Below, piece after piece: positions 31,543 through 61,340 of a DNA stretch of 64,000 nucleotides. The DNA lies in NCBI RefSeq assembly GCF_035084215.1, contig NC_090343.1, positions 10,292,001 to 10,356,000 on the forward strand, given 5' to 3'. Source of the DNA: Heptranchias perlo. Taxonomy: Eukaryota. The first letter of the stretch is position 1, and each line of letters opens with the position of its first letter. The notes below the pieces were generated by a model. The model saw only the letters and a program-made list of their open reading frames with translations. It searched no databases and was not told the origin of the DNA. Made by a program: the position numbers and the translations under genes.

Positions 31543-31917
31543 TCACATTCTGCAGTGTCTTTCGAAGGTCACAGCGCTGCATTGTTCTGACACAGTGGAA
31601 ATAGCCATATTGTTCTCGAATTGATGTTCTGAAACTTTCAGCACCTTTTGGTGGAGATACTTGATCCTCTCGTCTTCCCGTTGCTCAAAGAAGGTTGCGG
31701 AAATTTTCCTTCGTGCACGCGAGGCATAGGTTTCCAAAAGCACCGTTATATAAGCAATAAAGTGCAGCAGGCAGACAAAGTAGATGATATTGCTGTTTGG
31801 GGGAGACGGCTGCAACATGCAACTATCGGATACAAAGGTGAAATTCCAGTGGAAATCAGCTTCCCGTGTTACTATGTTCTGGGTCTCAGTGACTACTCCA
31901 AGAATCACCATATCCAC
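31543..31917 (-). CDS. OCSTAMP: Osteoclast stimulatory transmembrane protein, copy A, exon 3
   Basis: Acceptor ttttcag|GTG; VDMVILGVV...CMLQPSPP...VLLETYASRARRKISATFFEQREDERIKYLH is the DC-STAMP-family C-terminal motif. 375 bp including stop; AATAAA at about 31477-31487. Confidence 0.9.
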   Translation of the reverse strand: MDMVILGVVTETQNIVTREADFHWNFTFVSDSCMLQPSPPNSNIIYFVCLLHFIAYITVLLETYASRARRKISATFFEQREDERIKYLHQKVLKVSEHQFENNMAISTVSEQCSAVTFERHCRM

Positions 31918-32585
31918 CTGAAAAAGACAATTCATGTTTAAAGTCCTGTCAGAAATAAGGGCATCCATTATACAGAAACGGGATAAACCTGATTGGTCTA
32001 TGGGATGTGAGATTAACAGTGATCCAGCCTTTAGTCTAGAGCCTCATTTACTTGAGAAAGTTTACTTGTTTGTAGTGATATATATAAAATAAATGAATCC
32101 ACTGGAATAACGTTACGCTTGTCAGATTTTCTATTTCTAAACAAATCCTTGTTTCCATTCAGTTCCAATCTTTGAAAGCTTTATAATTTGATATCGTTTG
32201 CCAGAAGTTACTCCTCTATTTGCCCCTGGCCATGGATACTCAAAAAATTCTCTCCTATATATCAACCATTTGGATCCCTCTATTCAGTTCCTGCCTTGAA
32301 GTAGCCTGTGCCTCTGCTATAATTTTCTCCCATGTTGTTCACCCATGAAACTCTAACACGTTGTCTCCTAAGAAGGGTATTTCAACTTGGCAATGAACAA
32401 TCTGCTCCAGTTGGAACTCCTCCCAAAAACATAATAAAAAAACAATCCTAACAACACAGTATGTAATTATACAATACTGTGCATCATTAAATTTACTCAT
32501 AGAGATGGTTGTCTTGCAAGAATTTCACAGAAAATGATATAGCTCATTTTGACATGAATGATTAGAAAACACCGCACCATGTATA

Positions 32586-32815
32586 GAACATAAGAACATA
32601 AGAAATAGGAGCAGGAGTAGCATACGGCCCCTCGAGCCTGCTCCACCATTCAATGAGATGATGGCTGATCTTCTACCTCAACTCCACTTTCCCGCCCTAT
32701 CCCCATATCCCTTGATTCGCTTAGTGTCCAAATATCCATCTATCTCAGTCGTGAATATACTCAATGACTGATCATCCACAGCCCTCTGGGGTAGAGAATT
32801 CCAAAGATTCACAAG
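32586..32815 (-). mobile_element. CR1 3' tail fragment
   Basis: cataagaacataagaaataggagcaggagtagg tail and VNLWNSLPQRAV motif. Confidence 0.85.
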
Positions 32816-33197
32816 CCTAGATATTGTGGAGCAGAAGCTAAATAAAAAGGTGACATGATAATGCAAGCTGATAGTGCTAGTATACGGTACAACAAGAAGC
32901 CGTAAATCATCCCAGAATTCCGTACACGGTGAGTGTCCATTCTGAGCCTGTAAGTGACAAAGAGCAGAGGGTGCACCGTGCTTTTTGCTTAGGTAAAAAT
33001 TGTACAGTTAAAGTAATCCCTTTAAGTTTCACACACATTCCTAGCGCAACAGAAGCAGAGAGCCCTTGGAAACAGCTATCTGCCCATCATCTCAATTAGG
33101 GGCATGGAAAGGCCCTGAGGAAGCAAGGGAAATATAATATACTAAATAAAAATCTGGGGAATGGTAAGAATTCCTCTAATCAATGTGTGTTCATAAA

Positions 33198-34500
33198 AAC
33201 ATAAGAACATAAGAAATAGGAGCAGGAGTAGGCCATACGGCCCCTCGAGCCTGTTCCGCCATTCCATAGTATCGTGGCTGATCTTCGACCTCAACTCCAC
33301 TTTCTTGCCCAATCCCCATATCCCTTGATTCCCCTAGAGTCCAAAAATCTATCTATCTCAGCCTTGAATATGTTCAACGACTCAGTATCCACAGTCCTCT
33401 GGGGTAGAGAATTTCAAAGATTCACAACCCTCTGTGTGAAGAAATTATTCCTCATCTCAGTCTTAAATGGTTGACCCCTTATCCTGAGACTATGCCCTCT
33501 AGTTCTAGACTCTCCAGCCAGGGGAAACAACTTCTCAGCATCTACCCTGTCAAGTCCCCTCAGAATCTTGGATGTTTCAATGAGATCACCTCTCATTCTT
33601 CTAAACTCCAGAGAGTATAGGCCCATTCTACTCAATTTCTTCTCATAGGACAACCTTCCTACCCCAGGAATCAATCTAGTAAACCTTCGTTGCACCGCCT
33701 CTAAGGCAAGTATATCCTTCCTTAGATAAGGAGACCAAAACTGTACGCAGTACTCCAGATGAGGTCCCACCAAAGCCCTGTACAATTGTAGTAAGACTTC
33801 CTTACTCTTGTACTCCAACCCCCTTGCAATAAAGGCCAACATGCCATTTGCCTTCCTAATTGCTTGTTGTACCTGCATGTGTTTCTTGTACGAGGACACC
33901 CAAATCTCTCTGGACACCAACATTTAATAGTTTCTCACCATTTGAAAATATTCTGTTTTTCTATTCTTCCTACCAAAGTGAATAACCTCACATTTCCCCA
34001 CATTATACTCCATCCGCCACCTTCTTGCCCACTCACCTAACCTGCCTATATCCCTTTGCAGACTCTTTGTGTCCTCCTCGCAGCATACTTTCCCATCTAG
34101 CTTTGTATCGTCAGCAAACTTGGATACATTACACTCGGTCCCTTCATCTAAGTCATTAATATAGATTGTAAATAGCTGAGGCCCAAGCACTGATCCTTGT
34201 GGCACTCCACTAGTTACAGTCTGCCAACCTGAAAATGACCCGTTTATCCTTACTCTCCGTTTTCTGTCCTTACCCCATCCTCTATCCATGCTAATATATT
34301 ACCCCCAACCCCATGAGCCCTTATCTTGCGTAACAACCTCTTGTGTGGCACCTCATCAAATGCCTTTTGAAAATCCAAATATACTACATCCACCGGTTTC
34401 CCTTTGCTAGCTACATCCTCAAAAAACTCCAATAACTTTGTCAAACACAATTTCCCTTGCATAAAACCGTGTTCACTCTGCCGAATCACATTATGATTTT
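33198..34500 (-). mobile_element. CR1 LINE RT/3' fragment in OCSTAMP-A intron 2
   Basis: YLDFQKAFD, SGVPQGSVLGP, KFADDTK and PHLEYCVQFWSP motifs. Confidence 0.93.
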
Positions 34501-34724
34501 CATAAGCCATGGTAACTGCACTTGTGAACATTTTCCCTGGTCAGTATATCCAGCAAGATCATAAACATGTTCTTTCTTATTTACAATTTCATAAGAATTA
34601 ACGAAGCAGAAAACTTCCAAAAACCCACTTATTGTGTTGTTACGGGTAGCAACCAGAGTAAATCTTCCAACGCCTCATCCTCGGGAGGGAAACAGAACCA
34701 AAAAAAAAGTATAGTCATCTTTAC

Positions 34725-35787
34725 CTTGTATGTAAATCCCACACTGATAGGTACAGGCGGAATCTCAACAATCCAACCCAGGAACTGCGAAGTGAGGCTG
34801 AAGACAAGAAAATCTGTTGCTATGACAATTGCAGACAGCGCTAAGTACACTGTGCTGATCACCATTTGCATCACACATCTGGCTACTTCCTCTGAGGACA
34901 TTTTCAACCCTGTGGATCTGATTAACTTTCTGCTCTTGGTTCGGCATAGTACGGGCTCCCCGTTGCTTGTCTGTACCAGCTGAGCCAGCCTGCTAGTTAT
35001 ATATACGTTGTCAAACTGCAAATTCATCAGATAGCCCCTGAGATACCAAGCTGAACTTATAATCAGATAAAAGAAAACAAAGCCAGCAAGTGCTCTGTTG
35101 GTGTGCAGAGTGGTCTCACTGAGTACGGTCTCAATTGTAGAAAAGTCGCTTTGGATTTCTTTGCCAACAGTTTGTAGATGAGTCTTGACTGCTGACTGAT
35201 TGATGTCTGAATTAAAATTCAATTTTGTTTTCGATGTTCTAAGCTTGCTCTCTGCAATTTTGTCCACGATCGTGATGATATCTGCATCCAGCACATCTTT
35301 AACCTCCCTTACAATGTTGGACGAGTTCATGAGGTTTTCAGTTGAGGTCAGAGCGACACACTCAAGTACTTGGAGAATCATCTTGATATTTCCCAGAATA
35401 TTGGGGATTATGTAGACGGCTACAAGCATGAAGCACGTGGAAAGGAGCAGACCACGACCTTGTTTTGTGCCTAACGTGGGGATCACTATAGTGAACACGC
35501 AGCGCACGGGATGGACCAGGAAGAGAAGCAGGAACATGGTGCCCGCGAACATGCTGGTTATTGTATTGCACATGTGTGCTCTGTATTTCAGAGTTGAAGA
35601 CATCCAGTTGTGGAGCAGGGCACTGCTGATCACAGATATACTTGAACATAACAGAAAGAGGGCAAGCAGTTCTCTCCAGCAGCCTGGAGTAGGCTTGCAG
35701 TAAGCAGTCCACAAGATCTGGATGACTTTCTTCATTTTCTCTGGCCAATTATTCCCGCACAAAAAGGAAGTCTTCAAATTACAGCAT
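34725..35787 (-). CDS. OCSTAMP: OCSTAMP copy A, exon 2 (1063 bp)
   Basis: LVHPVRCVFTIVIPTLGTKQGRGLLLS...PNILGN...QVLECV...SAWYLRGYLMNLQFDNVY aligns by eye to human OCSTAMP (VPPVRCLFALSVPTLGMEQGRRLLLS...SAWYLHCYLTDLRFDNIY). Acceptor ccgcag, donor AAG|GTAAAG, phases 2/0 consistent with the flanking exons. Confidence 0.93.
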
Positions 35788-36699
35788 CTGCGGAGGAAAG
35801 AAATTAATTTTTAGACAACTAAAATGTTCAGATGTTTTTGCAAATCTGCTGAGTATAAATTCATAGAGATCATTAATGGTAAGACCGCACTCACTGTAGG
35901 CAGTACATTTAGAATTGTACACACTGCTTCTAAATTCTGCTTCCATCTCATAACATGTGCAAATTCAATGGGGATCCTAAGCATTTTCCCTCAACAAAAA
36001 ATTTACATTTTGAAATTCAACATTTCTCTCTTAACCAACATCACCAAAAACAAATTATTTGGATATTCATTCAGTTGTTGTTTGTGGGATGGTGTGGCTG
36101 TGTGTAAAATTGGCTGCCACCTGTGCTTAAACAGTAACTGAGCTTCCAAAGTAATCCATTGCTTGTAAAGCGTTTTCAGACATCCTTGGGCTGTGAAAGG
36201 CACTTCACGAATGTGAGTTCTTTCTTTCTCTCTATTTTAAATAGTCCACCTTTTTAATTTTAAACACTTTTTGTTTATTTTAAAAAATAATTTACAAGAA
36301 AATTAAATGATATTTAGGTTTGTCCATTATAAACAGACCAACTGATCACCTCTCCCCCAAAAACTGCTTGAATAGTCATCAAGTGGGACTGAGAAAGTTA
36401 GTTCTTGCAAGATTAATCAGAAAGCTGGCTCTTGCTCATACTGACATGCTTTCAGATCTTTAGCACTTTTACCCTGTGTTTCTTTTTATGCACCTTCTCT
36501 TTCCATTCCTCTGCCCCCTTCTCATTCCCTTCCATCTCCCTCTTTCAAATCCCCCTTCACAGAGGCACTCTCCTCTCCCCCTTCGCAAGGGCTGTTTCTC
36601 CCTTCTGTTCATTGAGGCACTTGGCCTCCCTCCTCCTGCTTCTTGATGGGCTTCTCACTGCCAGCATTGGCTGCAGCTCCTACCCAATGCTACTGCTCC

Positions 36700-36935
36700 A
36701 CAGGTGAATCTGTGGAATTCTCTACCACAGAAGGCAGTGGAGGCCAAGTCATTAGATGTATTCAAGAAGGAGATAGATATATTTCTTGATGCTAAAGAGA
36801 TCAAGGAATATGGGGAAAAAGCGGGAACCGGGTACTGAGTTAGACGATCAGCCATGATCATTTTGAATGGTGGAGCAGGCCCGAAGGGCTGAATGGCCTA
36901 CTCTTGCTCCTAATTTCTATGTTTCTATGTTTCTA
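36700..36935 (+). mobile_element. CR1 3' tail fragment
   Basis: gtgaatctgtggaattctctaccacagaaggc...gaatggcctactc...(tttctatg)n. Confidence 0.8.
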
Positions 36936-38439
36936 TTTCAGGGGAGGACTGTTTCACTGCGGGACAGGATCCGGCAAAAAGCATTGCCATACCAGAACCT
37001 CCCATCCGGAGCTTGCGGTCGAGATCTCTCTTCAGGAGTGAAGCTGCAATGCCAGGAAGGAGCCAGGTCCAACAATGAGGAGTGGATCAGGGAGTGGAGC
37101 TTAGGTATTCCCCCTGGGAGGTGGTCCTGATCCACAAGTTATAAGGTCAGGTGTTGCAACTCAATTAATGTCATAGGATGTCCAATGATCACGAGGTTTC
37201 CAATTTTCCAGTAGACAATGTATATTGGTACTCCACATTGGGTGCAAACCAAGGATTAAAACTTGGGCAAGCAGGTAGAGAGACCTTGCTCAATGCTCTT
37301 ACACATCCTAGACTTGTGTATAATAGAAAGTATAGGGCTGATATTCCTCCCCCGACCCTGAGCCTGGGCGCTAGTCAGGCAGAGTGTATCCAAAGTGATT
37401 TGCCCTGAACTCACTTGTATTTGCAGGCTCAGGTAATTAACCTAGGCCCAATACACCACAATTCCAGGCCTGCCACTTGGCATGGCCTTACGTTTGGAAA
37501 TGGGTGTGGAAATGCAACTGCCAGTGCAGGCCTGAGAGAGGGTAAAACAGTCAGAAGGCTTCACGACTGACCCCTCCCCTGCTGTCCATGAAAGAAAAAA
37601 GGACACCCTTTTCTGACATTCAGGACTTTACTGCCTCCTCCTTTCTGAGGCCCAGTTCTTTTGGTGCTGCCCTGCTGGCATTGGGGAGGAAACTGAAGCA
37701 GGAGGGCTGATTACTTCCCCTCCCCTCTCATTAGCATGTCTGGTTTTTGCTTATGTCATCTGAGGGCGCTAGGACACCATACCTCCTCAGTGAAAACTCT
37801 GGAAATCCCCAGGCATCATTAATGGGGCGGAGACCCAGTGTCATGGGTATGGTAGCATATTGGTTACATATTGGTGGGACCACCATCACCACAAGCACTG
37901 CCGTGATTCAAGGAGAAGGCCCATTATCGTCTTCTCACAGCAAATAGGGATGGGCTACAAATAGGGTCTTGCCCGTGTTGCCCATGTCCTGAGAACAAAT
38001 TTTAAAAACTTTTTGATCAAAATTGATTCAAATAGAATGTGAATAAATTAGGTTGAAAAGCATTTCCTCTTTCAAAGAATGTCCCTATTAAACCATATCC
38101 CCATTAAGTGGTACCAACAGTATCATTTTCAAACTTGCCACCACACCAAAGACTATGATCATCCAGAATCTATACCATACGTGTAACTTTCCTGTTGATG
38201 GATTGTTTTTATTGATTGATTAAGTCGTCCAGAAATTATTATTTACTGTTACATTTTGAGGGTAAGTTTTTGTGCTTTGTGACGCCAGTGATACCAGCTG
38301 GGGAATGGAAAACCTTTCACATTTGCTCCTGCTCCTCAGCAACTCAAATATAACATGAATAAGTGAAAAGTAGAGGCTCATCTACTCTGCCTCAGCAATA
38401 TGTCTTAATCACAAGGCTTGTGTCCCAGCAATATAGAAA

Positions 38440-38850
38440 GAAAAAAAGCACCTTTCACAACCTCAGGACATCCTAAAGCCAATGAAGCACATTTGAAGTG
38501 TAGTCACCATTGTAATATGTATGGATATGCAGTAGCCAATTTGTGCACAGCAAGGTTCCACAAACAACAGTGAGATTAATAACCAGATAATTTGCTTCAG
38601 TGATGGTGGTTGGGGGATAAATGTTGGCCAGGACACTGGGAGAACTCTCATACACTTCTTCCAATAGTGTCATGGAATCTTTTATGTCCACCTGAGAGGA
38701 CAGTAGGGGCTCAGTTTAACATTTCATTTGAAAGACAATGCAGCACCCCCTCTGTTCTGCACTGAAATGTTATCTTAGATTTAAGTCCCTGGAATGGAGC
38801 TTGAGCCCATGACCTTCTCAGAGGCAAGAGTGCCGGCACTGAACGAAAGC
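38440..38850 (-). mobile_element. SacSINE1/Deu-domain-like SINE
   Basis: Reverse complement of the family at 26640-27040. Confidence 0.7.
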
Positions 38851-39060
38851 TGCCACCTTGTGAATGTCTTAATCACAAGACATTCTTCCACAGAAATTTG
38901 CCTTAGCCACAAGGCATTTGCTCCAGCAATGTGCCTTAATCACCCAAAGGCATTCTACACCAATAATATATCTTAAATCCAACACACTCTGCTCCAACAA
39001 CATGCCTTAATCACAATCTCAAACAAGTATTCCCTACAGCACTAAAGTCGTTTAGACATT

Positions 39061-39180
39061 GGGAGTGAAATTGGACTTGGACGGTTACGTAAAATGAACG
39101 GTAGTGAATCAGCCGCCCATTTTACACCCGACCCAATTTTCTTTCCCACAATAGCTACTGCTCAAGACCAATTTCACCCC
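39061..39180. mobile_element. Small MITE-like element
   Basis: Terminal inverted repeats gggagtgaaattggacttg / caagaccaatttcacccc; GGG...CCC termini as in the Harbinger elements of this window. Confidence 0.5.
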
Positions 39181-39538
39181 TGTTGTTTTTTGCTCGGTAT
39201 TGGAGTGTTTTAGATGCAAATTGCTATTGATAAGTGTCTGTATATGAATTAATATTTCAGGTTGGAAGGTTGTGGAAGGTGGGGGTGGGATGATCCCCCT
39301 ACTGTTCTATCTGCGATGACCTACCTTGGCACAGACCAGGGATTGAATGTGCTGATACTCTGGTCTCTGCGGCTCGGTATCGACCAGTGAAATGTCCAAC
39401 AAAGCCATCAGGAAAGGGTACAAAAGGTGATTTTTCAATGGTGATGACAATAGCAAATGTTAATGAAAATCACTCACATCTACTCTATATTTGCTTAGCA
39501 TGGAAACTGAAGCACAAAAACAAAAAGAATTTACTTAC

Positions 39539-39588
39539 TTATATGTGTTACAGCCAGTGCAGCCACACTTCTTATCCTGTGTCACCAT
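39539..39588 (-). CDS. OCSTAMP: OCSTAMP copy A, probable coding exon 1
   Basis: gaaATGG start, MVTQDKKCGCTGCNTY+AA, strong donor GTAAGT. Phase 2 joins exon 2 in frame (K-C-C-N-L-K-T-S-F). TATA-like TTTATAA about 80 bp upstream. Confidence 0.7.
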
Positions 39589-42500
39589 TTCGGATGTAAT
39601 TCTTATCTGTTGCATAGTTACTGCACCTTCAGTTTAATGAATAAATGGAAAGAATCAAAAGTGAATTATAAACTGCGTTTCCAGCTTTACGCTCCTCACC
39701 TCAACCTTGATGATCACACATACAACTTGGCACGGTTACTATAATAATGCAAACAACTTCACAGCTTCCTGATTTATATAATATCCTGATCATATCGATA
39801 TTTCACTGTTCCCTCTTCTTAAAAAAAATTTGAGTTTGCTCCCTTGTATGGATTCAGTTCATAATTAAAAACATTAAAAATGCAATCTAAACAGGTATAT
39901 ATATTGGAGGACATTTGTGCTCATCAGATATCTATATTGTGAATTAAAACTATTTTGCCAGGATTGAGCCATTGCATGTAAGCATGAGCCATCTTTTACA
40001 CCCTGCAATAATATGCCTCAATGTCGACCTCAGAGGAGCAGTCTGAAGCCTCACATACTCTTGTCACTGGGTAGCATATAGAGGACCTGCAAAACAAGGT
40101 TTAAGAGGACATCACACACTATCACCAAGAGGAAGCATTGTGGCAGCAAACACAAGGGATTCATACAAGACATGTTTGGTGATTAGAAATATAGTTGTAC
40201 TAAGGTTGTTGCATTTGCTGACAGTATTCCTGCAAAGGTTGGTGAGCATGTTTCAGAAGACGACATGAATGGGAAATTTTTGACTTGCAGGGAAGGTTTA
40301 CGGCACTATAGGTGAAGTCATATTTGTGAGGCCATGAGAAAGCTGTGGACGGGACCGTTAATGCAGTGGGCACATAACCAAGCTAAGAGTCTTCCTGTAT
40401 GAGAGCTTGACGAATGCCACTCTCCCAGCAAGCAATTGATTATCTAGCTGCTGCTTCTTCAGGCTGCTCCTGCTATTTGATCGCCCCTTTGATGCACCTG
40501 GGCCTTTCCTGCTTTGGGGCCTCCACGATGATGCCTCTTCGTTGGGTCAAGTTGTGTAGCATGCAGCGGGCTACCATGATTCTTGCAACCATGGCCCTTG
40601 AGGAGCTGTCAACTCTTCTGAATCTGTTGGTCAGGTTTTGCTAGTTTTCTAGGTTGACATGTATAAGGGAATGGAATAATTTCCTATCCCACCTATCCTG
40701 AATTTGCCTTTTGCCAGTTTGCACCAATATCCTTCAGCCATGTTTTAACCTGAAATAGTACATTTCCACTCCATTTAGTATCATATATACCTCTATAAAG
40801 TATATTCATTTAATTGCCTCCTTTCAAAGCTGAAGAGTACAAATTTTTCTAACCGTTCCTCAGAAATCAGCAACTTGCATTTATATCACAATTAGGTTTA
40901 AGGCAAACAGATGCCAAGCCAGAAGGGTGAGAATAGGAGGGGTGAACAAAAGCTTAATCAAAGTGATGGGTGTTGAGGAGGTTTTGAAAGGGGGAGAGCC
41001 TGAGATGTTTAGGTAGGGAGTTCCAAAGTTTAGGACTGGTGCAGCTGATTGGTCTGCCACCAAGTGAGGGGCAAAGAGAGAGGGCTTTGCACAGAAAGCT
41101 GGAGTCAGAGGGACTGAGCATTTGGGATGGGATTTAGGGCTGGAGGAGATTGCAGATGGAGGGATTTATAGACGAGAACAAAGGCTTGAAATGTGGTATG
41201 TTGGGGGGACAGGGAGCCAGTGTAGATCAGTGGGGATGGGGTGATGGGCAATCAGGGCGTGTCAAGTTGGAGTTTTGGACAGGTTGGAGTTTATGGAGGG
41301 TGGAGGATGGGAGGCCAGCAAAGAAATTAGTTCGCTGACTTTTGAGATCAGCCTTGTGACTCCTCTCTGCACAGCTTCCAGGACTTGGATTCACTTGTGT
41401 CTTGGTGACCATAAGTGAATGCAATTCTCAATGTGCGGCCTGACTGCAGCACTGTACAGGTCCAGCTTTACGGGCTTCAACTTATACTCTACTGATTTGG
41501 CAATACAACTCAACATTCTATCTGTTTTTGTAATTGCTACAATGGCTTGACATTGTAAGTGTTGAGTCTATTGTCATTTCCAGTTCACCTCCTCTTCTCT
41601 TCTGGCCAATTCAATGTTATTCATTAAGTAAGTATATTCTCCATTTATTTTTCTTCCAATGTGTAGCAACTTACACCTATCTGTGTTGAATTTCTGTCAT
41701 AGTGCTGCCCATTTTCATAGAATCATAGAATGGTTACAGCACAGAAGAGTCATTTTCGCCGAGAGGGTGAAGAGACACAATTTGGACAGGTAATTTTGCT
41801 GTTATATGCTTTTCTATTAATTGCACACTGTCTTGCTTTGGCCTCCTTGTGTGAGCTTCTTCAAGTGCTCAGAGATGCTGTGTGAAACATTTTGTGAATC
41901 TGTTGTGCTCTTTTATGGTATTCCATTTGGGGTGGCAGGGGGTAATTCTGCCTTCTACTTGATTCAACAAAAAGTTCATGAGCTGCTCAAATGTCACTCT
42001 TACACAAGAGTGTTTGGTACCAGATCTCAAATGGCCAGTAGTGACTGTTAACCCAGAGATTGTGGGCTTGGTTTTCAAGCTGAAGTGCTGGTGCGTTGAG
42101 GGCGGGTGGGCTCCGAAAATCAGGGAAAATCCCGAGCTGGTGCGGAAGCCACCTCCAACCCACCAACTTCCGGGTTCCCCACAGACACATCTGTGTGCGC
42201 GCACGCCTCACGAATGCAGAAGTCCCACCAGCAATTAAAGCCGGCGGGAGATGAAAGTTAACACAGTTATTTAGATAGTTTAAGTATTTGAAGTAGTTAA
42301 TTTCATGGTGATTGAGGTACGGGACCGATTTTCATTCAGCCTCAGTGTGTTTCCCGTGCTGTGGGAAACACTCCATTGTTTTAGGAGACATGTTTCAGCC
42401 AGCAGCCAGTTGGATATTGAAATGCTTGTTTGACAGATGGGGAGAAAAGGTGAGTTATTGCAGCAGGATATCTGTTCTTTCAGACAAACTTTTGGCTGGG

Positions 42501-42629
42501 AGATCTTTGTGTTTACACTGAAAATGTTTAGTTTCTACTCAGAATTGTTCTGTTGACGCATACTTACCAACTTTTCAGACCCCCTCAAACTGACACCATC
42601 AGGATGAGGGGTGGGGGGGGAACGCATGG

Positions 42630-43510
42630 CTGCATTTGCCACTACATCCGAGGTCGAGCAACATCACCAGCCTCGCCAGGCACGGCGTGCACTTCTGCCA
42701 CTTGGAGCTCCACAATACAGTGCTGCACCACAGGCACCTGCACAAGAGCACAGAGAGCAACAATAGAGAGAGCGATGTCGCAGGAGGCACTACCCTCGCC
42801 AGAGGGTCCACAGACCAAGGCTCAGCTTCCTGGACCTCTCTGAGGAGCAGTGCACACGGAGGCTGAGAGTGAATTGCCAAGTGGTTGCAGACATCTGCAG
42901 CCTCCTTAATGCCGAGCTGCTCGCGGCTGGGCAGAGCGGCATCTCATCACCTGTCAACGCTCAGCTCGTTTGTGACCACCGCAAAAGATTCCTTCACGTG
43001 TGTGCCAGATTCCCTGGCAGCTGCCACGATTCCTTCATTCTGATGGATTCCAACATCCCGGGCCTCTTCCACACACCGAACACCCTTAAGGGCTGGCTCC
43101 TCGGGGACAAGGGATACCCCCTGCACACGTTGCTCACGATACCTCTGAGGAACCCCATCAACGAGCAACAACGTCAATACAGCGACAGCCACGTCGCCAC
43201 CAGGTCTACAATTGAGCATGCTACAGGGCTGTTCAAGATGCGATTTAGGTGCCTTGATCATTCTGGGGGAGCGCTTCAAAACGCACCAGACAGAGTGGGA
43301 TGCATTATAGTATTGTATTGTATCCTTCACAACATGGCACAACAGAGAGGGGTACCGCTTGAGGAGGCCCCATCCACATCTGCTATCCACATTGAGGAGG
43401 AGGTGGGAGAGGAGGAGGAGGAAGATGAGGATGAACCCATGGCCAGAGCAGTGGCTCACTTGGCTGCTTGTGAGGCCAGGGAATCACTGATATGTGAACG
43501 GTTCTCCTAA
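42630..43510 (+). pseudogene. Harbinger (HARBI1-like) DDE transposase relic, internally deleted
   Basis: NAQLVCDH...ARFPGSCHDSFIL...WLLGDKGYP...RSTIEHATGLFKMRFRCLD...CILHN. The segment carrying the first catalytic Asp (GxIDxTH) is missing. Confidence 0.88.
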
Positions 43511-43813
43511 CATCAGAAAGTGTGAAGAGTCCAGTCCTCAGACCACCTGGAAAGGGCAGGGCCCACACCAACCCCCCATGCCCCCGCACAAAACAGTCCT
43601 GCAAGTACACATACACCCCACTGTGAAGTGATCCAATGGGTGGCATGAAGTGTCGCCGTTTATGCTGAAGCTCATGAAAGAGCCCTATCACAAAAGCCAG
43701 TCAAGGATGGGGAAAACGTGAGAATGATAACATTTAATGTGAATATAACAAAAAACAAATATAAATGGATAACATGACAGTCTGTCAGACTCCCTTGTGC
43801 ATACACTTTGTGC

Positions 43814-45440: not shown

Positions 45441-45935
45441 CAGCCTTGCCCCTGAGCTGCTTCATTGTGACTTCTGGGTCTTTGCTGCAGCAAAAGCCTT
45501 TGGAGCAATGGCCCCTTAAATAGAGCTGCTCCAGCTGGCAGCCTGTCACGCGGGTGCGCAGTCCACTCACTGCGCAGCTTTCGGATGGCAAACCCGGAAG
45601 CCACGTTAAGGTCCACCAATTAACGCGCGATCACATGGGAAACGGTAAGATTTTATTAGTCGGGTTACCCATGTGCCCATTGACCCCTCACCCCACCCCT
45701 GCTGCCATCTGAAAATCGAGCCCTGTGAGTTGAAGTCCAACAATTCACTGGTGGCTTATTGGGCAACTACAGGGCAGGTGGGAGGAGACTCATAAATGGA
45801 GATGGGGGTCCTAGGGCCCTGTTTCTCAGGTGATAAACTCTAAAATCACTTTTTGAACACCAAATAAACAGGCAAAACGCACCCAAAATTTGTGTGAAAA
45901 ATAAACTGGCTCGGGAAATTAGGTGACTCGTGCCA

Positions 45936-46660: not shown

Positions 46661-46689
46661 GTTCCCAGTAACTCAATACTTTAATGCCA

Positions 46690-49600: not shown

Positions 49601-51940
49601 GCCGACGTACTGAGGATCAGCAAATCTTTTTATGCTGGGCTGTATGACGTGAAGCCCACAGTCAGCACGGCTTCCCAGTCCTTCCTATCCTCTATCATGG
49701 AAGTCTTATAGGACAGCGACCGGGAGTGCATGGATCGTCCACTGACAAAAGCCGTTCAGTCTTTTGAGAAGAGTAGAACTCCCGGAAACAATGGCTTACC
49801 TGTCGAGTTATACTTGGCCCTGTGAGACTGGATAAGCCCAGACCTACTGGAAGTGCACAGGGGTATGCTTCTAGCAGGCGGCATGTCAGAGTCCACGAGG
49901 AAAGGCATTATCGCCCTCATCTATAAGCGGAAGGGGGAGAGGGAAGTAATCAAAAATTGGCAACCCATTTCCTTGCTAAATGTCGACCTCAAGATTCTGT
50001 CTAAGGCCATTGCCAACAGGATCAAGTCTGCTTTGGAGCGGGTGATCCACCCGGATCAGACCTGTACTGTACCCGGCAGGAAGATTTCTGATAGCCTTGC
50101 TCTGCTCAAAGATACGAGCGCCTACGTGCAGGACAGGGGGGTGAACACCTGCCTCATCGGCCTGGACCAGGAGAAGGCCTTCGATAGAATATCCCACATG
50201 TGCATGATGGATGTGCTCTCCAAAATGAGTTTTGGGGAGGGAATCTGCGATTGGATCCGACTGCTCCACGCGGACATCCGTAGCGCAGTCCTAATCAACG
50301 GGTGGGAGTCAGAGAGCTTTCCGATCAGATCTGGAGTCAGGCAGGGCTGTCCTCTCTCCGCATATGTTGTATCGAGCCGTTTGCCGCATCCATCAGGAAG
50401 GACGCGGGTATCGGAAGGGGGGGCGGGGTGACGATCTCAGGCAGCGGAGGCTCTCAGGTTAAGGCCTCCCGTACATGGACAATGTCACCATCTTCTGCTC
50501 CAACCAGCAGTCGGTCCACACACTGATGGGCGTCTGCGACTGTTTCGAGCTAGCCTCGGGGGCCAGAGTGAACCAAAATAAAAGCAAGGCAATGTTCTTT
50601 GGCAGGTGGGAGGCCCGGTCCCTTGTCCCCTTCATTGTCAGGTCCGACTATCTGAAGGTGCTGGTTCAGGTGGCCCTTGGCCTGCGCAAAGAACTGGGAG
50701 GAGCGGATCACCAAGGCCAAACAAAAGCTTGGTATGTGGCTGGGGTGATTCATCTCCATAACCGGCAGGAACCTGGTGATAAGGTGTGAGATACGCATGG
50801 TGTTGCTCTACATGGCCAGGGTCTGGCCCATTCCCCACAATGCCACAATCACAGTCACCTGACCTATCTTCCACTTTGCCTGGAGGCCCAAAATAGAACG
50901 CGTCCACAGGACCACCATGTACAAGACCCCCGACAAAGGCGGGAAGAGCATCCCCAACACTGCTGTGATGGCCACCTTTGTGTGTGGCTGCCTCAGGATA
51001 TGTGTAGAGCCCCAGTATGCAAACACCAACTGGGTGCTGGGTTTCTACCTGTCCAACACACTGAGAAGGCTGGGTATGGCCATGCTGTCCAGGCATGCGT
51101 AGGACGTCCTATCCAACTGGACCATCCCCAGTCCCAGGTGGAGAAGTTCCTGAGGAGGAACCCCTTTGACCACAAGGCCGTCAGACAGTGGTAGACACGA
51201 AATGTTCTCAGAGTCCTGCAAGGGTGGACTCGATTGGTTTCTTCCCCGACCAGATGGTCGATGCCATTTGGCAGAACGTCTCAACGCCAGAACTGACCAA
51301 CAGGCACCAGGATGTAGCCTGGATGGTGGTGAGAAAGGCCCTCCCAGTGCAGTCCTTCCAACATGCACGGAACCTCAGCGCTACCGCGAGCTGCCCTCGA
51401 GGCTGTGGCGGGGAGGAGATCGTCGTCCACCTCCTGATGGGCTGCCCCCTTTGCGCAGAGGGTGTGGAGAGAGATGCGTTGGTATCTGTCCCGATTCATC
51501 CAAAACAATTCGGTAACACAGGAAGCTGTGCTCTACGGACCGTTCCCCGGGACACACAACGAGACAGATATCACCTGTGGCTGGAAAACCATCAACTCGG
51601 TGAAGGAGGCCATTTGGTCTGCCTGAAACCTGCTGGTCTTCCAGCTGAAGGAGCTGTCCACGATCGAATGTCGCCACCTGGCACACTCCAGGGTCCAGGA
51701 GTACGTGCTGCAGGACGCACTGAAGCGATCTCGCAAAGGCCACCGTATAAAGCTACCCCACCCTGTATTGTGCAGAATACATTAGAAAATATGTACTGTG
51801 TTATAAAATTGTAACAATAAGATCATAGTGCATACGATCTGTACTGTGTTGCTTTGAACTTCTGTGCTGCATTTTGCGCCCGTTATTTGAACTGTGTAAA
51901 CCGTGTGTATCTTTAAATTTTATGGAATAAAGTATATTTT
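46690..51940 (+). mobile_element. Near full-length decayed Tx1-clade L1 retrotransposon (5' boundary approximate)
   Basis: ORF1 from about 46819 has an RRM-like region and three CCHC knuckles (CRSCGNPGHEAASC, RNCRKEGHQTLDC, CNLCGEAGHLYKTC). ORF2 from 48420 has the APE endonuclease (LFLQE, AGDFN, SRIDF) and RT (NWQPISLLNVDLKILSK, LDQEKAFDRISH, GVRQGCPLS, YMDNV). Many stops and frameshifts; 3' tttatggaataaagtatatttt. Confidence 0.93.
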
Positions 51941-52300
51941 AGGGACTTGAACACATAATCTAGGCTGACATTTCAATGCAGTACTGAGGGAGTGCTGCAC
52001 TGTCGGAGGTACCGTCCTTTGAATGAGATGTTAAACAGAGGCCCTAACTGTTCTTTCAGGTGGATGTAAAAAATCCCACAGCACTATTTCGAAGAAGAGC
52101 AGGGGAGTTCTCCCCGGCCAATATTTATCCCTCAACCAACGTCACTAAAATAACAGATTATGGGATCTTTATCACATTGCTGTTTGTGGGAACATGCTAT
52201 ACGTAAATTTCCTGCCTTACAACAGTGACTATACTTCAAAAGTACTTCATTGGCTGTAAAGAGCTTTGAGACGTCCTGAGGCCGTTTCTTTCTTTCTTTC
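51941..52300 (+). mobile_element. SacSINE1/Deu-domain-like SINE, 5'-clipped by the Tx1 element
   Basis: Family body and (tttc)n tail. Confidence 0.75.
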
Positions 52301-53489
52301 TTTATTGAGAGTCTGAGGTCTCTGCTCTAAATACACACTTTTGCATATTAACCCATTCTTTTCTGTTCTTATAGCACTGTAAACCTGCAGTGACAGATTA
52401 TAAATTAAACAACAACGTGCATTTATATAGTGCCTTTAACATAGTAAAAAGTTCCAAGGCACTTCACAGGAGTGATTATCAAACAAAATTTGACACCGAG
52501 CCACATAAGGAGATATTAGGACAGGTGACCAAAAGCTTGGTCAAAGAGGTAGGTTTTAAGGAGCATCTTAAAGGAGGAGAGATAGAGAGGCGAAGAGGTT
52601 TAGGGAGGGAATAAATGCATGCATAAAACACATATGTGACTTGCTAAAAACATTGAATAAAACCTTAAAATCCTTTTAATCCTCCATGGCTGGGTCCTAT
52701 TTTACAGCTCGTCCGCTGCATGAGTGCAACAGAAGGGCTGAGGACTTTTGGCCGAAGTGTGTTAGAACACGAGAGGCTGACTACGGCCATCAACATTAAA
52801 TCCAACCGTAGATAATCCTGGATTAACCAGACATAGAATTTTACAGCCCATTTTTATTTTCTCAGGAATTAATGGAGCACTATGCTTAAAAAACATTTAA
52901 TATATATATATATATATTTTACAAATCTTGGTGTCAATAAACAAAAGCAAATGCCTATTAAGTATAAAAGATAAACTTTTACACAGAGCCCACTGTGTTA
53001 CTTTTGCGCAGTTTCATCTGTGAGCAGGTCTAACACCAAGGTGGGTATTCGCAGGGCTCAGCTCCAGATGCAAATTATTTTGCACTTAAGATATTGTTTT
53101 GTTATATTCTTGAACTAAAATGCTGATTCAAGAGGAGTCACCTGTGAGGAACTAGTTTTCGCTGGTGACTACTGGTTGCTGTCAGGTCACAATAATCTAC
53201 AGAGAGGGACAGAAGTTGATTATAAAGGACTGAGCGCGCACACATCAAACTGGGCCCTTCAGCGCCCGTTTCTCGCCTGGAAAATGGTTGCTGTCGGGTT
53301 GTTGACTTTATTATGGTCCTGACATGAGCATGTTGATCTTCAGTGATATTGGCTTAACTTGGCCAAAGACACCTTGCCTTTGGAGATGGTTTTTAGCCAA
53401 TCAGAGTCCGATTTTTTTTTTATCGTGGGTCCCACTTCCAAACGAATGGCATGACACTGGAAGAAAGGTACGGTAAGTAACTACATTGA

Positions 53490-54925: not shown

Positions 54926-57104
54926 GGGAAGCGCAAAGCCCTCTTTCCATGGGTAAAACTATGTGCTTTATGAAGTAAAATGCGACCTTTGTCAGAATGA
55001 TTCGACTTGACTCCAATTGGATATAATGGTACTTTATTAACTTCACGCAAGGAACAACACATGCAAGAGTCAAAGCAGGAGTTAACAGTACAGAACAAGA
55101 ATTATATTACCCGTTCTGTTCTCGGTAGAAGATGTGTCCGCTTCTCACCCCTCATGCTTCTACACTAACAAAGTCTCAGACTCCCCCGGTTGTACCCCAA
55201 AAGAACGGAACTGTGGCAAAATACATCAAATTAGGTATTTTCCCAAATACTCCCCTTTTCACTGCAGCAAATTTAAGCCACTTATAGATGGTTCTCTTAT
55301 CAGCACTTTTAGGGGCCGATCAATCGTTCTTCCTTGATTCCGGAATGTAGTTGCTTAGCGACATGTTCGGACATACATGCCCATCCTTTGTTTCACTGTT
55401 TTTGCCTCAGATAGCATGATTGTGTGTTTTTAACCACGAGTATTACTGCACTAAGGCTGGTTCCTGTTGTTTCTCACCCATAACCCCGTTAAGTCTACCC
55501 CTTTGAATTCCTTATACATTTGTGTGAAAACTATATTCCTTTACACCTTATGCGCAAATTAATTTGGGATAGCAGACTTCAGAATGAACAATTAACCCTT
55601 TTACCGATGAGATAGACGCTGGAAATAATAAATTATTAATGTAGGGTCTGGATCGCTCCAACTGACAGGTAAGTAACACTTGATAGACTGTATATCCCAG
55701 GTTACAACCACACATCAGGTTTATTAAGAAGTAAAATTAAACAGAAACAAGGGCAAATCCAGCAGATTTCACTGGATTACAGAACTTTATTTAACTCGCA
55801 TTCCCTGTTTCAAAGTCTGATTATTCTTTGCAATATTACACTTCTACTTTTTGCCAGTGCCTGTGATGTAAAGTTTATATATGAAATCGGATAATCACGG
55901 AGTGTTCTACTATCCTCAGCTTGTTAGTTGCCTGGTAAAGCAAAGATTCCATGAAGAAAGCTTCAACGGTTATACTCCTGTTTGCTTTAACGTCCAAATT
56001 GGGACAAAGGAAGTTCAAAAGATAAACTTTCACAATTAAATAGAGCTGTCAATGACAAACAGGTTTCAAAGGCAGAAAGGTTGCCTGACAGGTTTTCCTG
56101 ATATAATGTTTGTGAAACAAAGCAACTCTCATTTGTTTAAAACACATTCTCAGGATGTGGGCATCGCTGGCAAGACTGCCATTTATTGCCCATCTCTAGT
56201 TGCCCTGAGAAGGTGTATGCAGGCGACCTTCTTGGTGGCAGTTTGATACATCTGAGGTGCTTGCTAGGCCACTTCAGAAGGCAGTTAGGAGTGGTGTGGG
56301 ATTGGATTCACATATAGACCAGACTGGGTATAGGATGGCAGGTTTCCTTCCCTAAAGGAAATTTTACCAGCAGTGATTTGTTTTACTCAGGAGATTAAAT
56401 GGGGCAGGGTCCATGCTAATTATAAAAGGCCTGCTGGAAGGAGTCGACTTCACGAACTCCTCTCGTTAACTGTTTCCTTATGTTCTATGAGAACAGGGGC
56501 GATCTGGCTCCCCTCAGTGGGCGTGGGATTCTTCGGGATTTTAACAAAAAAGGGGGAGCGGTTGCTGCTAATTTGCGCCATGGAACCATTCACGTGGACA
56601 ATCGGGAAATGTCCCGATTTTCCATATGCCTCGTCCAGCCCAGAGGGACCATCAGTGAATAATGAAGAGGGCAAGAGTTGAACCTATTTTTGTTTGTGTG
56701 TGTGAAAAGTGAGTTTGTGGTAATTTTATTGGCTGCGTTTAGTGACACCACCCGATGTAATTAACAAGATTTGTAGTTGCACTGCCAGGAAGTGGGAGAA
56801 CAATAATCAACCAACCCTTTCCCCTGAATGGCCCTTTTCTTCATTAAACGATAAGGAGACACCGGGTTGTCCCAGTGTCATCAAACAAAGCAAACATTTC
56901 ATTTCTAGAGAGATAGAATTAAAAAGCAGAGAAGTTAAACTTGTGTAAAACCTTGGTTAGATCACACTGGGAGTACTGTGAACAGTTCTGGTCTCCTTAT
57001 TATAAAAAGCATTGAAGAAGGTGCAAAAAAGATTTACTAGGATGGTATCAGAACTGAGAGGTTATAACTATCAGGAAAGATTGAGCAGGCTTTTTTTAAA
57101 GTTA

Positions 57105-57375
57105 TGTTGGTTGAGGGATGAATATTGGCCAGCAGACCATGGATAACTCCCCTGCTCTTCTTCAGAATAGTGCCATGGGATCTTTTAAGTCCACCTAAGA
57201 GGGCAGACAGGGCCTCGGTTTAATATCTCATCCAAAAGACAGCACAGCACTCCCTCAGTACTAACACTAAAGTGTCAGCTTGGATTATGTGCTCAAGTCT
57301 CTTGGAGTGGGACTTAAACCCACAATCTCCTAACTCAGAGGTTCTGAGGCAAGAGTGTTACCAACTGAGCCACAG
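57105..57375 (-). mobile_element. SacSINE1/Deu-domain-like SINE fragment
   Basis: Reverse complement of the head and body of the family. Confidence 0.7.
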
Positions 57376-58107
57376 CCTGATGCAGTAGAGGGGCATAACT
57401 AATAAAGAACTTAAATAAAGACAAAGGAAATTTATGAACTTAAATAATAATATTATTTGCACTATCCCCCATGCCCTCCAGGTGCCCACCGGTCGCTGAA
57501 GGCCTCAAACGTACTGGTGGACACTGCATTCTCCTTCTCCAGAGCCACCCGGGCACAGACAAAGCTGTGGAAGATAGGCAGGCAGCCAGAGCGACCGCCC
57601 TCCATGGACTGCATCCAACCTGGACCTTTTGGTGGCTAACTTGGCCAGGCCCAGGAGCAGACCACGAGGAGGTCCTCCAAGTTGCCCTCCCACCTTGCCT
57701 GGAATGTATAATTTGATGCAGTCAACACTACAGAAGAGTAGAAATAAAATTAAAAATTCGGACACTGCCGCCAAACCAATTCAAGAGCCCCAGAGTTGGG
57801 CCACTTATTCAGTCCCAATCAGTAGTGTTGGCTTAATTTGATGCAGTCAACACTACTGATTAGGACTGTACAAGGGGCTCAACTCTGGGGCCCTTTCATT
57901 ACAATTCTGTGTGATGCTCTGCATTGAGGTTCTCTACTGCAATGTATAATGCTACAACGCAGCCCAGCACTAACACTTGGGCCGGGCTCGAGCAACGCCA
58001 CATGTGGCATGTCATTGGCTTGATATTCACATCCGAATTTTTTATTTTATTTCTACTCCTCTGGTATTTTAATATGTATCCCAAGAAGCCAAGCCAGTAG
58101 ACCACAG

Positions 58108-58497
58108 TCACATTTTGCAGTCGCCTTCGAAGGTCACAGCGCTACATTGTTCTGACACAGTGGAAATAGCCATATTGTTCTCGAATTGATGTTCTGAATC
58201 TTCCAGCACCCTTTGGTGGAGATACTTGATCCTCTCGTCTTCCCGTTGCTCAAAGAAGGTTGCGGAAATTTTCCTTCGTGCACGCGAGGCATAGGTTTCC
58301 AAAAGCACCGTTATATAAGCAATAAAGTACAGCAGGCAGACAAAGTAGATGATATTGCTGTTTGGGGGAGACGGCTGCAACATGCAACTATCGGATACAA
58401 AGGTGAAATTCCAGTGGAAATCAGCTTCCCGTGTTACTATGTTCTGGGCCTTACCGAATCTTGGTATAAGATTAGTCAGAACAATTATCATATCCAC
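58108..58497 (-). CDS. OCSTAMP: OCSTAMP copy B, exon 3
   Basis: Acceptor gtttcag|GTG; 390 bp open frame nearly identical to copy A except the first ~17 codons. Confidence 0.9.
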   Translation of the reverse strand: MDMIIVLTNLIPRFGKAQNIVTREADFHWNFTFVSDSCMLQPSPPNSNIIYFVCLLYFIAYITVLLETYASRARRKISATFFEQREDERIKYLHQRVLEDSEHQFENNMAISTVSEQCSAVTFEGDCKM

Positions 58498-60280
58498 CTG
58501 AAACAGACCAATTCATGTTTAAAGTCCTGTCAGGAATAAGGACATCAACTGTATAGAAACTGGATAAACTACAAAAAAAATTTCAAGGTCATCTATATCC
58601 CAAGTTACTAGTGATAGCATGTTACAATCAATTGTAATATTAAAAGAATTACATTATAGTGAGAGGGAACGATTAATTGTATTTGGGATTTAACAGTTCC
58701 AGTGACTGTAAGTGCCCACCCTGCAGCCTTATTTGATGGCTAGCAGTATAATATATCATGGTCAGTCTGGCTTCCCAGAATAAAAGCGTACCACACTTAT
58801 TGCAAAAAAAAATTTTTAACGTCGCACTTTTAAAGAACAAAAAAGCACAGAGCTCCCCCACACCCCCAGTGGGCTCCTGAGAGGTAAGTGGAACGTCCAT
58901 TGTGATATTGAGCCGTACAATATCACAAAGTCTGATCCTTGGTCTGTGCTGAGTTGGCTGATCTCTAGCAGGTGGCAATTGAGGTGCTACAAGTGACACC
59001 CACAACCTGGGGGTAGATAGAGGGAAAATCAGTTTCATTGGCTCCCAGTCCGGGAACATTGCAATTTTAAAATTCTCATCCTTGTTTTCAAATCTCCCCC
59101 ACCCCCCCCCACCTATCTCTGTAACATCCTCCAACCCTCCAACCCTTTGAGATCTCTACGCTCCTCCAATTCTTGCCTTTTGCGCATCCCCGATTTTAAC
59201 CGCTCCACCATTGGCGGACGTGCCTTCGGCTGCCTGGGCCCTGAACTTTGGAATTCCCTTCCTAAACCTCTCCGCCTCTCTCTCTTCCTTTAAGACGCTC
59301 CTTAAAACCTATCCCTTTGACCAAGCTTTGGTCACCTGTCCTAATTTCTCCTTATGTGGCTCAATTTTGTTTGATAATGCTCATGTTGTTGTTGTTGTTA
59401 ATAATAATAATAATATTATTATTATTCAACTGTCCAGATGCAGCCAAGGAGTGACAATTGATGACAGCAGATGGTCAGGCCATCTTCTAACTGGTCTTAT
59501 TCCAGACTCTGGTAGTAACAAAAACTGAGGCTGACTCACCATCCTTTTCAATCAGCAAATCTTTCCCCAGCTTTGGTGATGTCATCTTACAGAAGGCATT
59601 TGTGGCGGGAGAAAAAGACAAAAGGGTAGAAATCGAAGCTCGTTGCGCCCCTATTTTACAGGCTTAAAATGGGGGCAATGAAGCCCAATTTCGGAGACCA
59701 AAGTCCTGCGCCCCAAGGATGCCTAAAAGACGTCTGACCCGAAATTGGGTCGGTGGGTTTTTCAGGAGTCTCTAGTGGTCACCTGAAACAGGCATTAGGC
59801 CCCTTAATATATAAATGAGGGGCTTAATGCCAGTTTTAGGACCACTCAGGAAATTGGTGTCCTGAGTAGCGGAGCAGGTACTGGCCACGCTCTGCTCAGC
59901 TTCACCTGGCGTGAACACGGCCTAGGAAACGGCTGCCACCGAAAAGGTGAGTTTTAGTAATTTAAGAAAAAACCCATGTGGAGCCAGAAGTAGCAGGAGT
60001 GCTGCACTCGGCTCCACAGCATTGCTGCCGACCACGATCAGCCCCCTCCCTCCCGCTGTCATCCCCCCATTCCCCCCACACCCCCTCTGGCAGTCAACTG
60101 AGGCATCTGCCAGTGAGGCAGGTGGCCCGAAATTCCTTCATGCAGAATTAACAAACACAGGAAACTTTTCACAAACCCACTTATTGTATTGCTACGCGTG
60201 GCTACCAGAGTAAATCTTCCACCGCCTCACCCTCAGGAGCGAAACAGAACCAAAAAGATATACAGTAAAGTCATCTTTAC

Positions 60281-61340
60281 CTTGTATGTAAATCCCACAC
60301 TGATAGGTACAGGCGGAATCTCAACAATCCAACCCAGGAACTGTGAAGTGAGGCTGAAGACAAGAAAATCTGTTGCTATGACAATTGCAGACAGTGCTAA
60401 GTACACTGTGCTGATCACCATTTGTATCACACATCTGGCTACTTCGTCTGAGGACATTTTCAACCCTGTGGATCTGATTAACTTTCTGCTCTTGGTTCGG
60501 CACAGTACGGGATCCCCGTTGCTTGTCTGTACCAGCTGAGCCAGCCTGCTAGTTATATATACGTTGTCAAACTGCAAATTCATCAGATAGCCCCTGAGAT
60601 ACCAAGCTGAACTTATAATCAGATAAAAGAAAACAAAGCCAGCAAGTGCTCTGTTGGTGTGCAGAGTGGTCTCACTGAGTACGGTCTCAACTGCAGAAAA
60701 GTCGCTTTGGATTTCTTTGCCAACAGTTTGTAGATGGGTCATGACTGCTGACTGATTGATGTCTAAATTAAAATTAATTTTTGTTTTCGACGAAGCAAGC
60801 TTGCTCTCTGCAATTTTGTCCACGATCGTGATGATATCTGCATCCAGCACATCTTTAACCTCCCTTACAATGTTAGACGAGTTCACGAGGCTTTCAGTTG
60901 AGGTCAGAGTGACACACTCAAGTACTTGGAGAATCATCTTGATATTTCCCAGAATATTGGGGATTATGTTGACGGCTACAAGCATGAAGCACGTGGAAAG
61001 GAGCAGACCACGACCTTGTTTTGTGCCTAACGTGGGGATCAGTATAGTGAACACGCAGCGCACGGGATGGACCAGGAAGAGAAGCAGGAACATGGTGCCC
61101 GCGAACATGCTGGTTATTGTATTGCACATGTGTGCTCCGTATTTCAGAGTTGAAGCCATCCAGTTGTGGAGCAGGGCACTGCTGATCACAGATATACTTG
61201 AACATAACAGAAAGAGGGCAAGCAGTTCTCTCCAGCAGCCTGGAGTAGGCTTGCAGTAAGCAGTCCACAAGATCTGGATGACTTTCTTCATTTTCTCTGG
61301 CCAATTATTCCCGCACAAAAAGGTCTTCAAATTACAGCAT
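60281..61340 (-). CDS. OCSTAMP: OCSTAMP copy B, exon 2 (1060 bp); exon 1 expected beyond the window
   Basis: Intact frame, same splice sites as copy A, one in-frame codon deletion (KTSFL vs KTFL). Confidence 0.92.

What the first reader, a model, noticed from the sequence alone, without database searches (positions are those of the whole stretch)
31543..61340. Tandem OCSTAMP paralogues, both with intact frames, in an apparently cartilaginous fish
Seen: two OCSTAMP copies about 26 kb apart on the same strand, with open frames and conserved splice sites. Known: OCSTAMP is, as far as I know, single-copy in mammals and is required with DCSTAMP for osteoclast and foreign-body giant-cell fusion. 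Inference: the repeats indicate a shark, which lacks endochondral bone. Retaining and amplifying this fusion regulator suggests a lineage-specific cell-fusion or macrophage system (odontoclast/chondroclast resorption of teeth, denticles or tesserae, or immune giant cells). The array may continue to the right.
Basis: partly seen in the sequence, partly recalled or inferred. Interest (0 to 1): 0.8.

Follow-up and report, generated by a model that had tools for sequence, protein, structure and literature searches.

The report
Two intact shark OCSTAMP gene copies
This shark carries two intact, side-by-side copies of the cell-fusion gene OCSTAMP that are both spliced and differ most at a predicted outward-facing loop tip; it is likely a fairly ordinary gene duplication, and a second shark species has a similar pair.

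Summary
The duplication is real. Two complete three-exon OCSTAMP genes (495 and 499 aa) lie in a tandem unit of about 26 kb. Exon 1 of copy B lies right of the window. The array stops at two copies. Non-coding divergence of 5.5% and different transposon insertions argue against a haplotype artefact; read depth was not obtained. Contigs of runs guessed to be RNA hold one spliced A-type and one spliced B-type junction. Both copies are already annotated, OCSTAMP is present in 19 elasmobranch species seen, and zebra shark has its own pair, so this is not a lineage-specific novelty, and no link to tooth or tessera resorption was found. Frames are kept (0 frameshifts against 6.7 expected), yet amino-acid changes are not depleted at conserved sites (dN/dS 0.84-0.94). 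Two leads remain. In both species the copies differ most at the apex of a predicted extracellular beta-hairpin, although that apex also varies between orthologues. And a broken, much older paralogue lies 2.3 Mb away; it groups with a full-length sawfish protein, pointing to an ancient second OCSTAMP lineage in cartilaginous fishes.

The parts
39539..39588 (-). Copy A exon 1, coding part (50 nt, phase-2 donor); identical to exon 1 of copy B, which lies outside the window at G000:C22:10365307-10365356
   Evidence: tblastn with N-termini of P0121 and P0003; alignment; splice ends
34725..35787 (-). Copy A exon 2 (1063 nt)
   Evidence: spliced A-type contig joins this donor to exon 3 (X6 record 9)
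31543..31917 (-). Copy A exon 3, coding part to TGA
31882..31908 (-). Copy A hairpin apex (short form); five codons shorter than in B
   Evidence: apex position by alignment to the model of copy B
60281..61340 (-). Copy B exon 2 (1060 nt)
   Evidence: spliced B-type contig (X5 record 1)
58108..58497 (-). Copy B exon 3, coding part to TGA
58447..58488 (-). Copy B hairpin apex (long form); predicted short helix between two beta-strands
27044..53487 (.). Duplicated unit A; colinear with unit B
   Evidence: colinear low-copy matches; the left edge rests on one 207-nt match and is approximate
56731..64000 (.). Duplicated unit B, left part; it continues to G000:C22:10376353
31989..34593 (.). Core of intron 2 of copy A: LINE/SINE pieces and unique DNA with no counterpart in the core of B intron 2 (58570-60143)
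   Evidence: 0 of 5 intron-2 comparisons beat shuffles; part of B's core is a dispersed repeat
17856..21173 (-). Neighbouring TP53RK-like kinase gene, not duplicated
   Evidence: ORFs, kinase-like Pfam hits; the gene name is recalled from the sequence, not given by a call

Best explanation
A tandem duplication of about 26 kb gave this shark two complete OCSTAMP genes that are both intact and both seen spliced, and that likely act largely redundantly as six-pass membrane regulators of macrophage-lineage cell fusion. Shown: exon structure, open frames, spliced contigs of each type, two copies only. Inferred: origin by unequal crossing-over; selection (or conversion between copies) has kept both frames open, while redundancy has relaxed constraint on amino acids, so both copies drift, fastest at the apex of the extracellular beta-hairpin, which is a fast-changing segment in orthologues too. 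Inferred from mouse knockouts: the role is fusion into giant cells or clast-like cells, not anything specific to bone.
For: Colinear unit with 325 mismatches in 5907 non-coding columns, 5.5%, against mean diversity 0.002 reported for another shark (PMC10587355, passages); different transposons in the two units; no N in 264 kb. A and B are sisters (support 100) nested among single shark orthologues (quick trees). 0 frameshifts where 6.7 are expected from the non-coding indel rate, P about 0.001. Spliced contigs: X6 record 9 joins the A donor to the A acceptor through the A apex with 1 other letter; X5 record 1 shows 11 and 4 other letters and 47 unplaced letters, the numbers expected for B by my hand count. 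dN/dS 0.94, or 0.84 without the apex; 7 of 22 differing columns are at least 90% conserved against 36.6% of 459 columns, Fisher P 0.82; changes fall on both copies. The apex differs also between close orthologues: 7 of 13 identical between two Chiloscyllium species that are 97.4% alike elsewhere. Three-exon layout, sequon and topology match mouse OCSTAMP (PMC4456411, passages).
Against: The apex is more diverged than neutral DNA (about 13 of 33 aligned bases by hand count plus a 15-nt indel; P 0.001 even at 16% background, 0.04 with a cautious 9 of 30). Both ends of intron 2 are 15-16% diverged (30 of 192 columns) and its core does not align, which hints at an older duplication patched by gene conversion. 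dS rests on 9-12 changes and is lower than non-coding divergence (Fisher P 0.04); against the non-coding rate the ratio is about 0.44, i.e. some purifying selection. No orthologue dN/dS baseline was available. The runs are only guessed to be RNA, are contigs of one sample, and give no tissue or level.
Confidence: 0.6

Rival explanations
1. The pair is older than it looks and is kept alike by gene conversion except at the hairpin apex, where selection holds two different forms; the apex would set which partner or opposing membrane the protein engages, so A and B would serve different fusion events.
For: Apex identity 7 of 15 against 454 of 479 elsewhere; the zebra-shark pair repeats the pattern, 5 of 13 against 398 of 429, also long versus short. 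Patchy divergence 2.5-16% along the unit. The apex tops the only beta-hairpin of the model (strands 328-340 and 355-368) in extracellular loop 3 of the mouse topology. A Tx1-like LINE end sits at matching places in both units yet is only 82% alike.
Against: The apex is variable in orthologues too, and lies at an exon junction where gene models err (RefSeq's own model of A reads through the donor). Windows as diverged as the intron-2 ends occur elsewhere in the unit (241 of 5313 and 93 of 4791). The LINE ends are no closer to each other than to other family members (81-89%), so independent insertion is possible. Model confidence is low (mean pLDDT 60, pTM 0.37). The zebra-shark models were not checked against DNA or RNA.
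Confidence: 0.2
2. The pair is transient: one copy is on the way to loss, as already happened to the older paralogue 2.3 Mb away.
For: Each copy has changes at columns invariant in 18 of 18 other elasmobranch rows (A: N142Y; B: S209L, K461R); dN/dS near 1; the older paralogue is broken here.
Against: No frameshift or stop in either copy; both are seen spliced; damage is not concentrated in one copy.
Confidence: 0.12
3. One reading: extra dosage was selected for a lineage-specific clast system that resorbs teeth, denticles or tesserae.
For: Both copies intact and spliced. DCSTAMP exon is open in the same genome. A reference title reports bone-resorbing cells in elasmobranchs (seen only in a reference list).
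Against: 17 of 19 elasmobranch species seen have one annotated canonical copy. Dosage selection should conserve the protein, which is not seen. Remodelling of chondrichthyan bone-like tissue is called untested (PMC8727550, passage); no multinucleated osteoclast resorption found in ray bucklers (PMC12404806, passages).
Confidence: 0.05
4. The two units are divergent alleles assembled in tandem.
For: Read depth and spanning reads were not obtained; contigs of both types from one sample fit alleles as well as paralogues.
Against: 5.5% divergence, non-homologous intron core, different transposons, a 3.2-kb spacer and no gap.
Confidence: 0.03

Closest known systems
Mouse/human OCSTAMP (OC-STAMP; DC-STAMP family, PF07782)
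   Same: Three coding exons with a short first exon and the bulk in exon 2, N-glycosylation sequon at the position of mouse N162, hairpin segment in extracellular loop 3; SLC13-type neighbour.
   Different: Two tandem copies here, differing at the hairpin apex; single copy in mammals is recalled, not tested. Function in sharks untested.
Zebra shark OCSTAMP pair (XP_048406446, XP_059508878)
   Same: Two copies on one contig, sisters in the tree, 92.8% alike outside the apex, long versus short apex.
   Different: Groups within its own order, so an independent event by the quick tree (or separately homogenised); adjacency not checked; one model is partial.
Ancient OCSTAMP-like paralogue of elasmobranchs (sawfish XP_051887639, white shark XP_041061369, relic L003 here)
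   Different: About 35% identity to canonical OCSTAMP, own clade with support 100, hairpin apex absent in the sawfish model; broken in this genome.
DCSTAMP and DCST1/DCST2
   Same: DC-STAMP-like domain proteins needed for cell fusion or sperm-egg interaction (PMC8989947, passages).
   Different: The DCSTAMP-like exon on C3 is only 23% identical; DCST1/2 were not put in the tree.

Membership tests
OCSTAMP orthologues | DC_STAMP domain PF07782 | tested here: met
   4 of 4 exon ORFs above the curated cut-off
OCSTAMP orthologues | Groups with OCSTAMP, not DCSTAMP | tested here: met
   Quick trees; 54-77% identity to other chondrichthyan OCSTAMP against 23% to the DCSTAMP-like exon
OCSTAMP orthologues | Three-exon gene, short coding exon 1, large exon 2 | tested here: met
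   against PMC4456411 passage
OCSTAMP orthologues | N-glycosylation sequon in extracellular loop 2 (mouse N162) | tested here: met
   N-S-S at the matching place in A and B; use of the site not tested
OCSTAMP orthologues | Synteny with SLC13A3/TP53RK | tested here: met
   Sodium:sulfate symporter exon about 92 kb right of B exon 1; kinase gene to the left; gene names and the mammalian order are recalled
OCSTAMP orthologues | Six-pass membrane topology | tested here: inconclusive
   Mostly helical model with one hairpin, mean pLDDT 60, pTM 0.37; no solved relative by sequence
OCSTAMP orthologues | [quoted passage not shown] | not testable with these tools
   Known for mouse; no shark data found
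True tandem paralogues (not false duplication) | Divergence far above allelic level, no gap | tested here: met
   5.5% non-coding, different insertions, no N
True tandem paralogues (not false duplication) | Diploid depth and spanning long reads | not tested
   No depth or long-read result was obtained; listed runs are kept as contigs
Concerted evolution with a diversifying segment | Patchy divergence and a segment above neutral rate | tested here: inconclusive

The most novel reading that the evidence does not exclude
Cartilaginous fishes have duplicated OCSTAMP at least three times (an ancient paralogue that lost the hairpin apex, plus separate tandem pairs in two sharks), and each time the copies part at the apex of the extracellular beta-hairpin. 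The apex would be the specificity or membrane-contact element of DC-STAMP-family fusion proteins, and these natural long/short pairs, 95% identical elsewhere, would be ready-made swaps to test how the family drives fusion.
Probability: 0.2. Interest if true: 0.7.

Novelty: new member of a known kind. Interest (0 to 1): 0.36.

Why it matters
How OC-STAMP and DC-STAMP promote membrane fusion is open, and no solved relative was found. Two expressed proteins that differ mainly in one predicted extracellular apex give a simple swap test. The ancient second paralogue, if confirmed, changes the family's history in jawed vertebrates; a 2015 paper still noted a lack of strong fish homologues (PMC4456411, passage). 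Without such tests the finding is an ordinary, already annotated tandem duplicate.

Tried and rejected
Further copies to the right: none in the genome searches or in 140 kb fetched. Copy B lacking exon 1: rejected. RefSeq's model of A with a later donor (P0001): not supported, the A-type contig uses the canonical donor. Exon 1 had no cover in 4 of 4 runs laid: no evidence either way. No listed holder is on record as RNA. A second laying over copy B with a DNA run gave no result, so depth is open. Homology between intron-2 cores: 0 of 5 comparisons beat shuffles. Exon 3 of the relic: not found in 100 kb around it nor genome-wide. Short exon-3 relatives: none. Solved structures: only one chance-level hit, E 0.94; the fold search never ran. 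The Atlas gave only the DC_STAMP family for the relic. The careful tree did not finish; quick trees were used, with long branches for the relic and DCSTAMP. Dating by the per-generation rate was dropped: generation time unknown. NFAT- and ETS-like words upstream of exon 1 were seen by eye and not tested. Literature: no listed title on OCSTAMP in sharks or its duplication in searches (3 of 4 listed; 0; 20 of 23 listed; 20 of 19,646 listed; 5; 2); listings only; PMC13188829 has 0 mentions in its main text; supplements were not read. Earlier findings: none.
Full report
Observation. The window is G000:C22:10292001-10356000. Self-comparison shows two duplicated blocks, 31270-31988 with 57834-58569 and 34594-36079 with 60144-61633. 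All 4 exon ORFs carry the DC_STAMP domain. Searching with N-termini of other shark proteins found a 50-nt coding exon 1 for each copy, at 39539-39588 and, outside the window, at C22:10365307-10365356. All introns are GT-AG and the spliced frames give 495 and 499 aa without internal stop. The databases already hold both, one as OCSTAMP and one as OCSTAMP-like partial, labelled Heptranchias perlo.

Copy number. Genome searches with exon 2, exon 3 and a distant paralogue return only these two close copies, a weaker locus at C22:12.642 Mb and a DCSTAMP-like exon on C3. The array does not go on.

Duplication or artefact. Low-copy matches are colinear from about 27044-53487 to 56731-84353 in extended window coordinates. 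Nine non-coding blocks differ at 325 of 5907 columns, 5.5%; the TE-derived blocks and the intron-2 ends were left out of that pool and are given below. The units carry different transposons and the 264 kb examined has no N. Mean diversity in another shark is 0.002 (PMC10587355, passages). A false duplication is therefore unlikely, but depth and spanning reads were not obtained.

Expression. Four runs guessed to be RNA, kept as contigs and all from one sample, were laid on copy A. X6 record 9 joins 34723 to 31915 with contiguous record positions, runs through the A-specific apex and has 1 other letter: a spliced A-type transcript using the canonical donor, not the later donor in the RefSeq model. 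X5 record 1 covers both exons with 11 and 4 other letters and 47 letters that do not fit; my hand count of A/B differences over the same ranges is 11 and 4, so it is B-type. Tissue and level are unknown; exon 1 had no cover.

Selection. Non-coding blocks hold 27 indels not divisible by three in 5997 columns, predicting 6.7 in the coding length; 0 are seen, and the two coding indels are 3 and 15 nt. So the frames are being kept. Amino acids are less constrained: dN 0.034 and dS 0.036 overall, 0.024 and 0.029 without the apex; 7 of 22 differing columns are at least 90% conserved in 18 other elasmobranch rows, against 36.6% of 459 columns (P 0.82; apex and poorly filled C-terminal columns left out). 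Against this, dS is based on few changes and is below non-coding divergence (P 0.04); scaled to 5.5% the ratio is about 0.44. No orthologue baseline was available.

The apex. The copies are 454 of 479 identical outside, 7 of 15 inside, the first codons of exon 3. In a low-confidence model of copy B this segment is a short helix between strands 328-340 and 355-368, the only hairpin; in the mouse topology it falls in extracellular loop 3 (PMC4456411, passages). Zebra shark has two annotated copies on one contig that are sisters in the tree and differ in the same way, 5 of 13 against 398 of 429. But the segment also varies among single orthologues: 7 of 13, 11 of 13, 14 of 19 and 13 of 16 identical in four close pairs, with lengths from 8 to 19 residues, and it sits where gene models are least reliable. 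At DNA level it exceeds neutral expectation (about 13 of 33 by hand count, P 0.001 at 16% background; 0.04 for 9 of 30). The two ends of intron 2 are 16.4% and 15.2% diverged and the core does not align, though equally diverged windows make up 2-5% of other non-coding windows. A LINE end at matching places is only 82% alike, like unrelated family members. An older pair patched by gene conversion is possible, not shown.

Distribution. A canonical OCSTAMP is annotated in 19 elasmobranch species and a chimaera in the outputs seen (120 of 154 hits listed); 2 of the 19 have two such copies. This counts annotated proteins only. Retention in a boneless fish is thus the rule.

An older paralogue. The locus at C22:12.642 Mb, beside an NCOA-type gene, has OCSTAMP exon-2 splice ends, a stop, a deletion of about 40 codons that removes a membrane helix, and no exon 3 found. 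Its two best matches among 62 hits are a 494-aa sawfish protein (53%) and a 355-aa white-shark protein (67%), both labelled OCSTAMP-like and on contigs of the same length as those species' canonical genes. The three form a clade (support 100) outside all canonical chondrichthyan OCSTAMP including the chimaera's (98), inside a chondrichthyan group (94); this is a quick tree with a long stem, so the date is unsure, but sharing by a ray and two sharks puts it before their split. The sawfish model lacks the apex.

Mechanism. Most likely unequal crossing-over gave two whole genes; both are transcribed and would act, as in mouse, in fusion of macrophage-lineage cells (inferred from PMC4456411 and PMC8989947, passages); redundancy lets the proteins drift, fastest at an exposed loop. 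Nothing links the pair to resorption of teeth or tesserae: remodelling of chondrichthyan bone-like tissue is described as untested (PMC8727550, passage) and one study found no multinucleated osteoclast resorption in ray bucklers (PMC12404806, passages).

Verdict. Real, already annotated tandem duplicate of a known gene; modest interest. I found no paper on it in the searches listed under Tried and rejected. The recurrent divergence at the hairpin apex and the ancient second paralogue are the leads worth following.

Noticed in passing
L003:1410-2340 (G000:C22 about 12642024-12642954, +): Broken exon 2 of an ancient OCSTAMP paralogue beside an NCOA-type gene; groups with a full-length sawfish protein P0133 and a patched white-shark model P0134.
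   Followed up: partly
window 34699-34724: The RefSeq model of copy A (P0001) reads through the exon-2 donor and adds intron-encoded residues; an RNA-like contig supports the canonical donor. The sawshark model P0003 may have a similar error.
   Followed up: partly
P0008 and P0010 (zebra shark): Second shark with two OCSTAMP copies on one contig, long and short apex.
   Followed up: partly
window 42092-45622, 62370-64000 and L007 region: Three Harbinger/PIF-like transposon remnants (DDE_Tnp_4 hit); two lie at roughly matching places in the two units but are only 70-80% alike, while the two in unit B are 91% alike.
   Followed up: partly
window 46238-51933: Long GC-rich Tx1-like LINE remnant (class recalled from its ORFs); a truncated relative lies at the matching place in unit B, followed by the same SINE.
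   Followed up: partly
window 17856-21173: TP53RK-like gene lies downstream of OCSTAMP, with the SLC13-type gene upstream; as I recall the human order is OCSTAMP, SLC13A3, TP53RK, so the order differs.
   Followed up: no
window 35785-35787 and 61338-61340: Exon 2 begins with an out-of-frame ATG followed after one codon by a stop in both copies.
   Followed up: no
L004:1360-2640 (G000:C3): Open DCSTAMP-like exon, one match in the genome searches.
   Followed up: no
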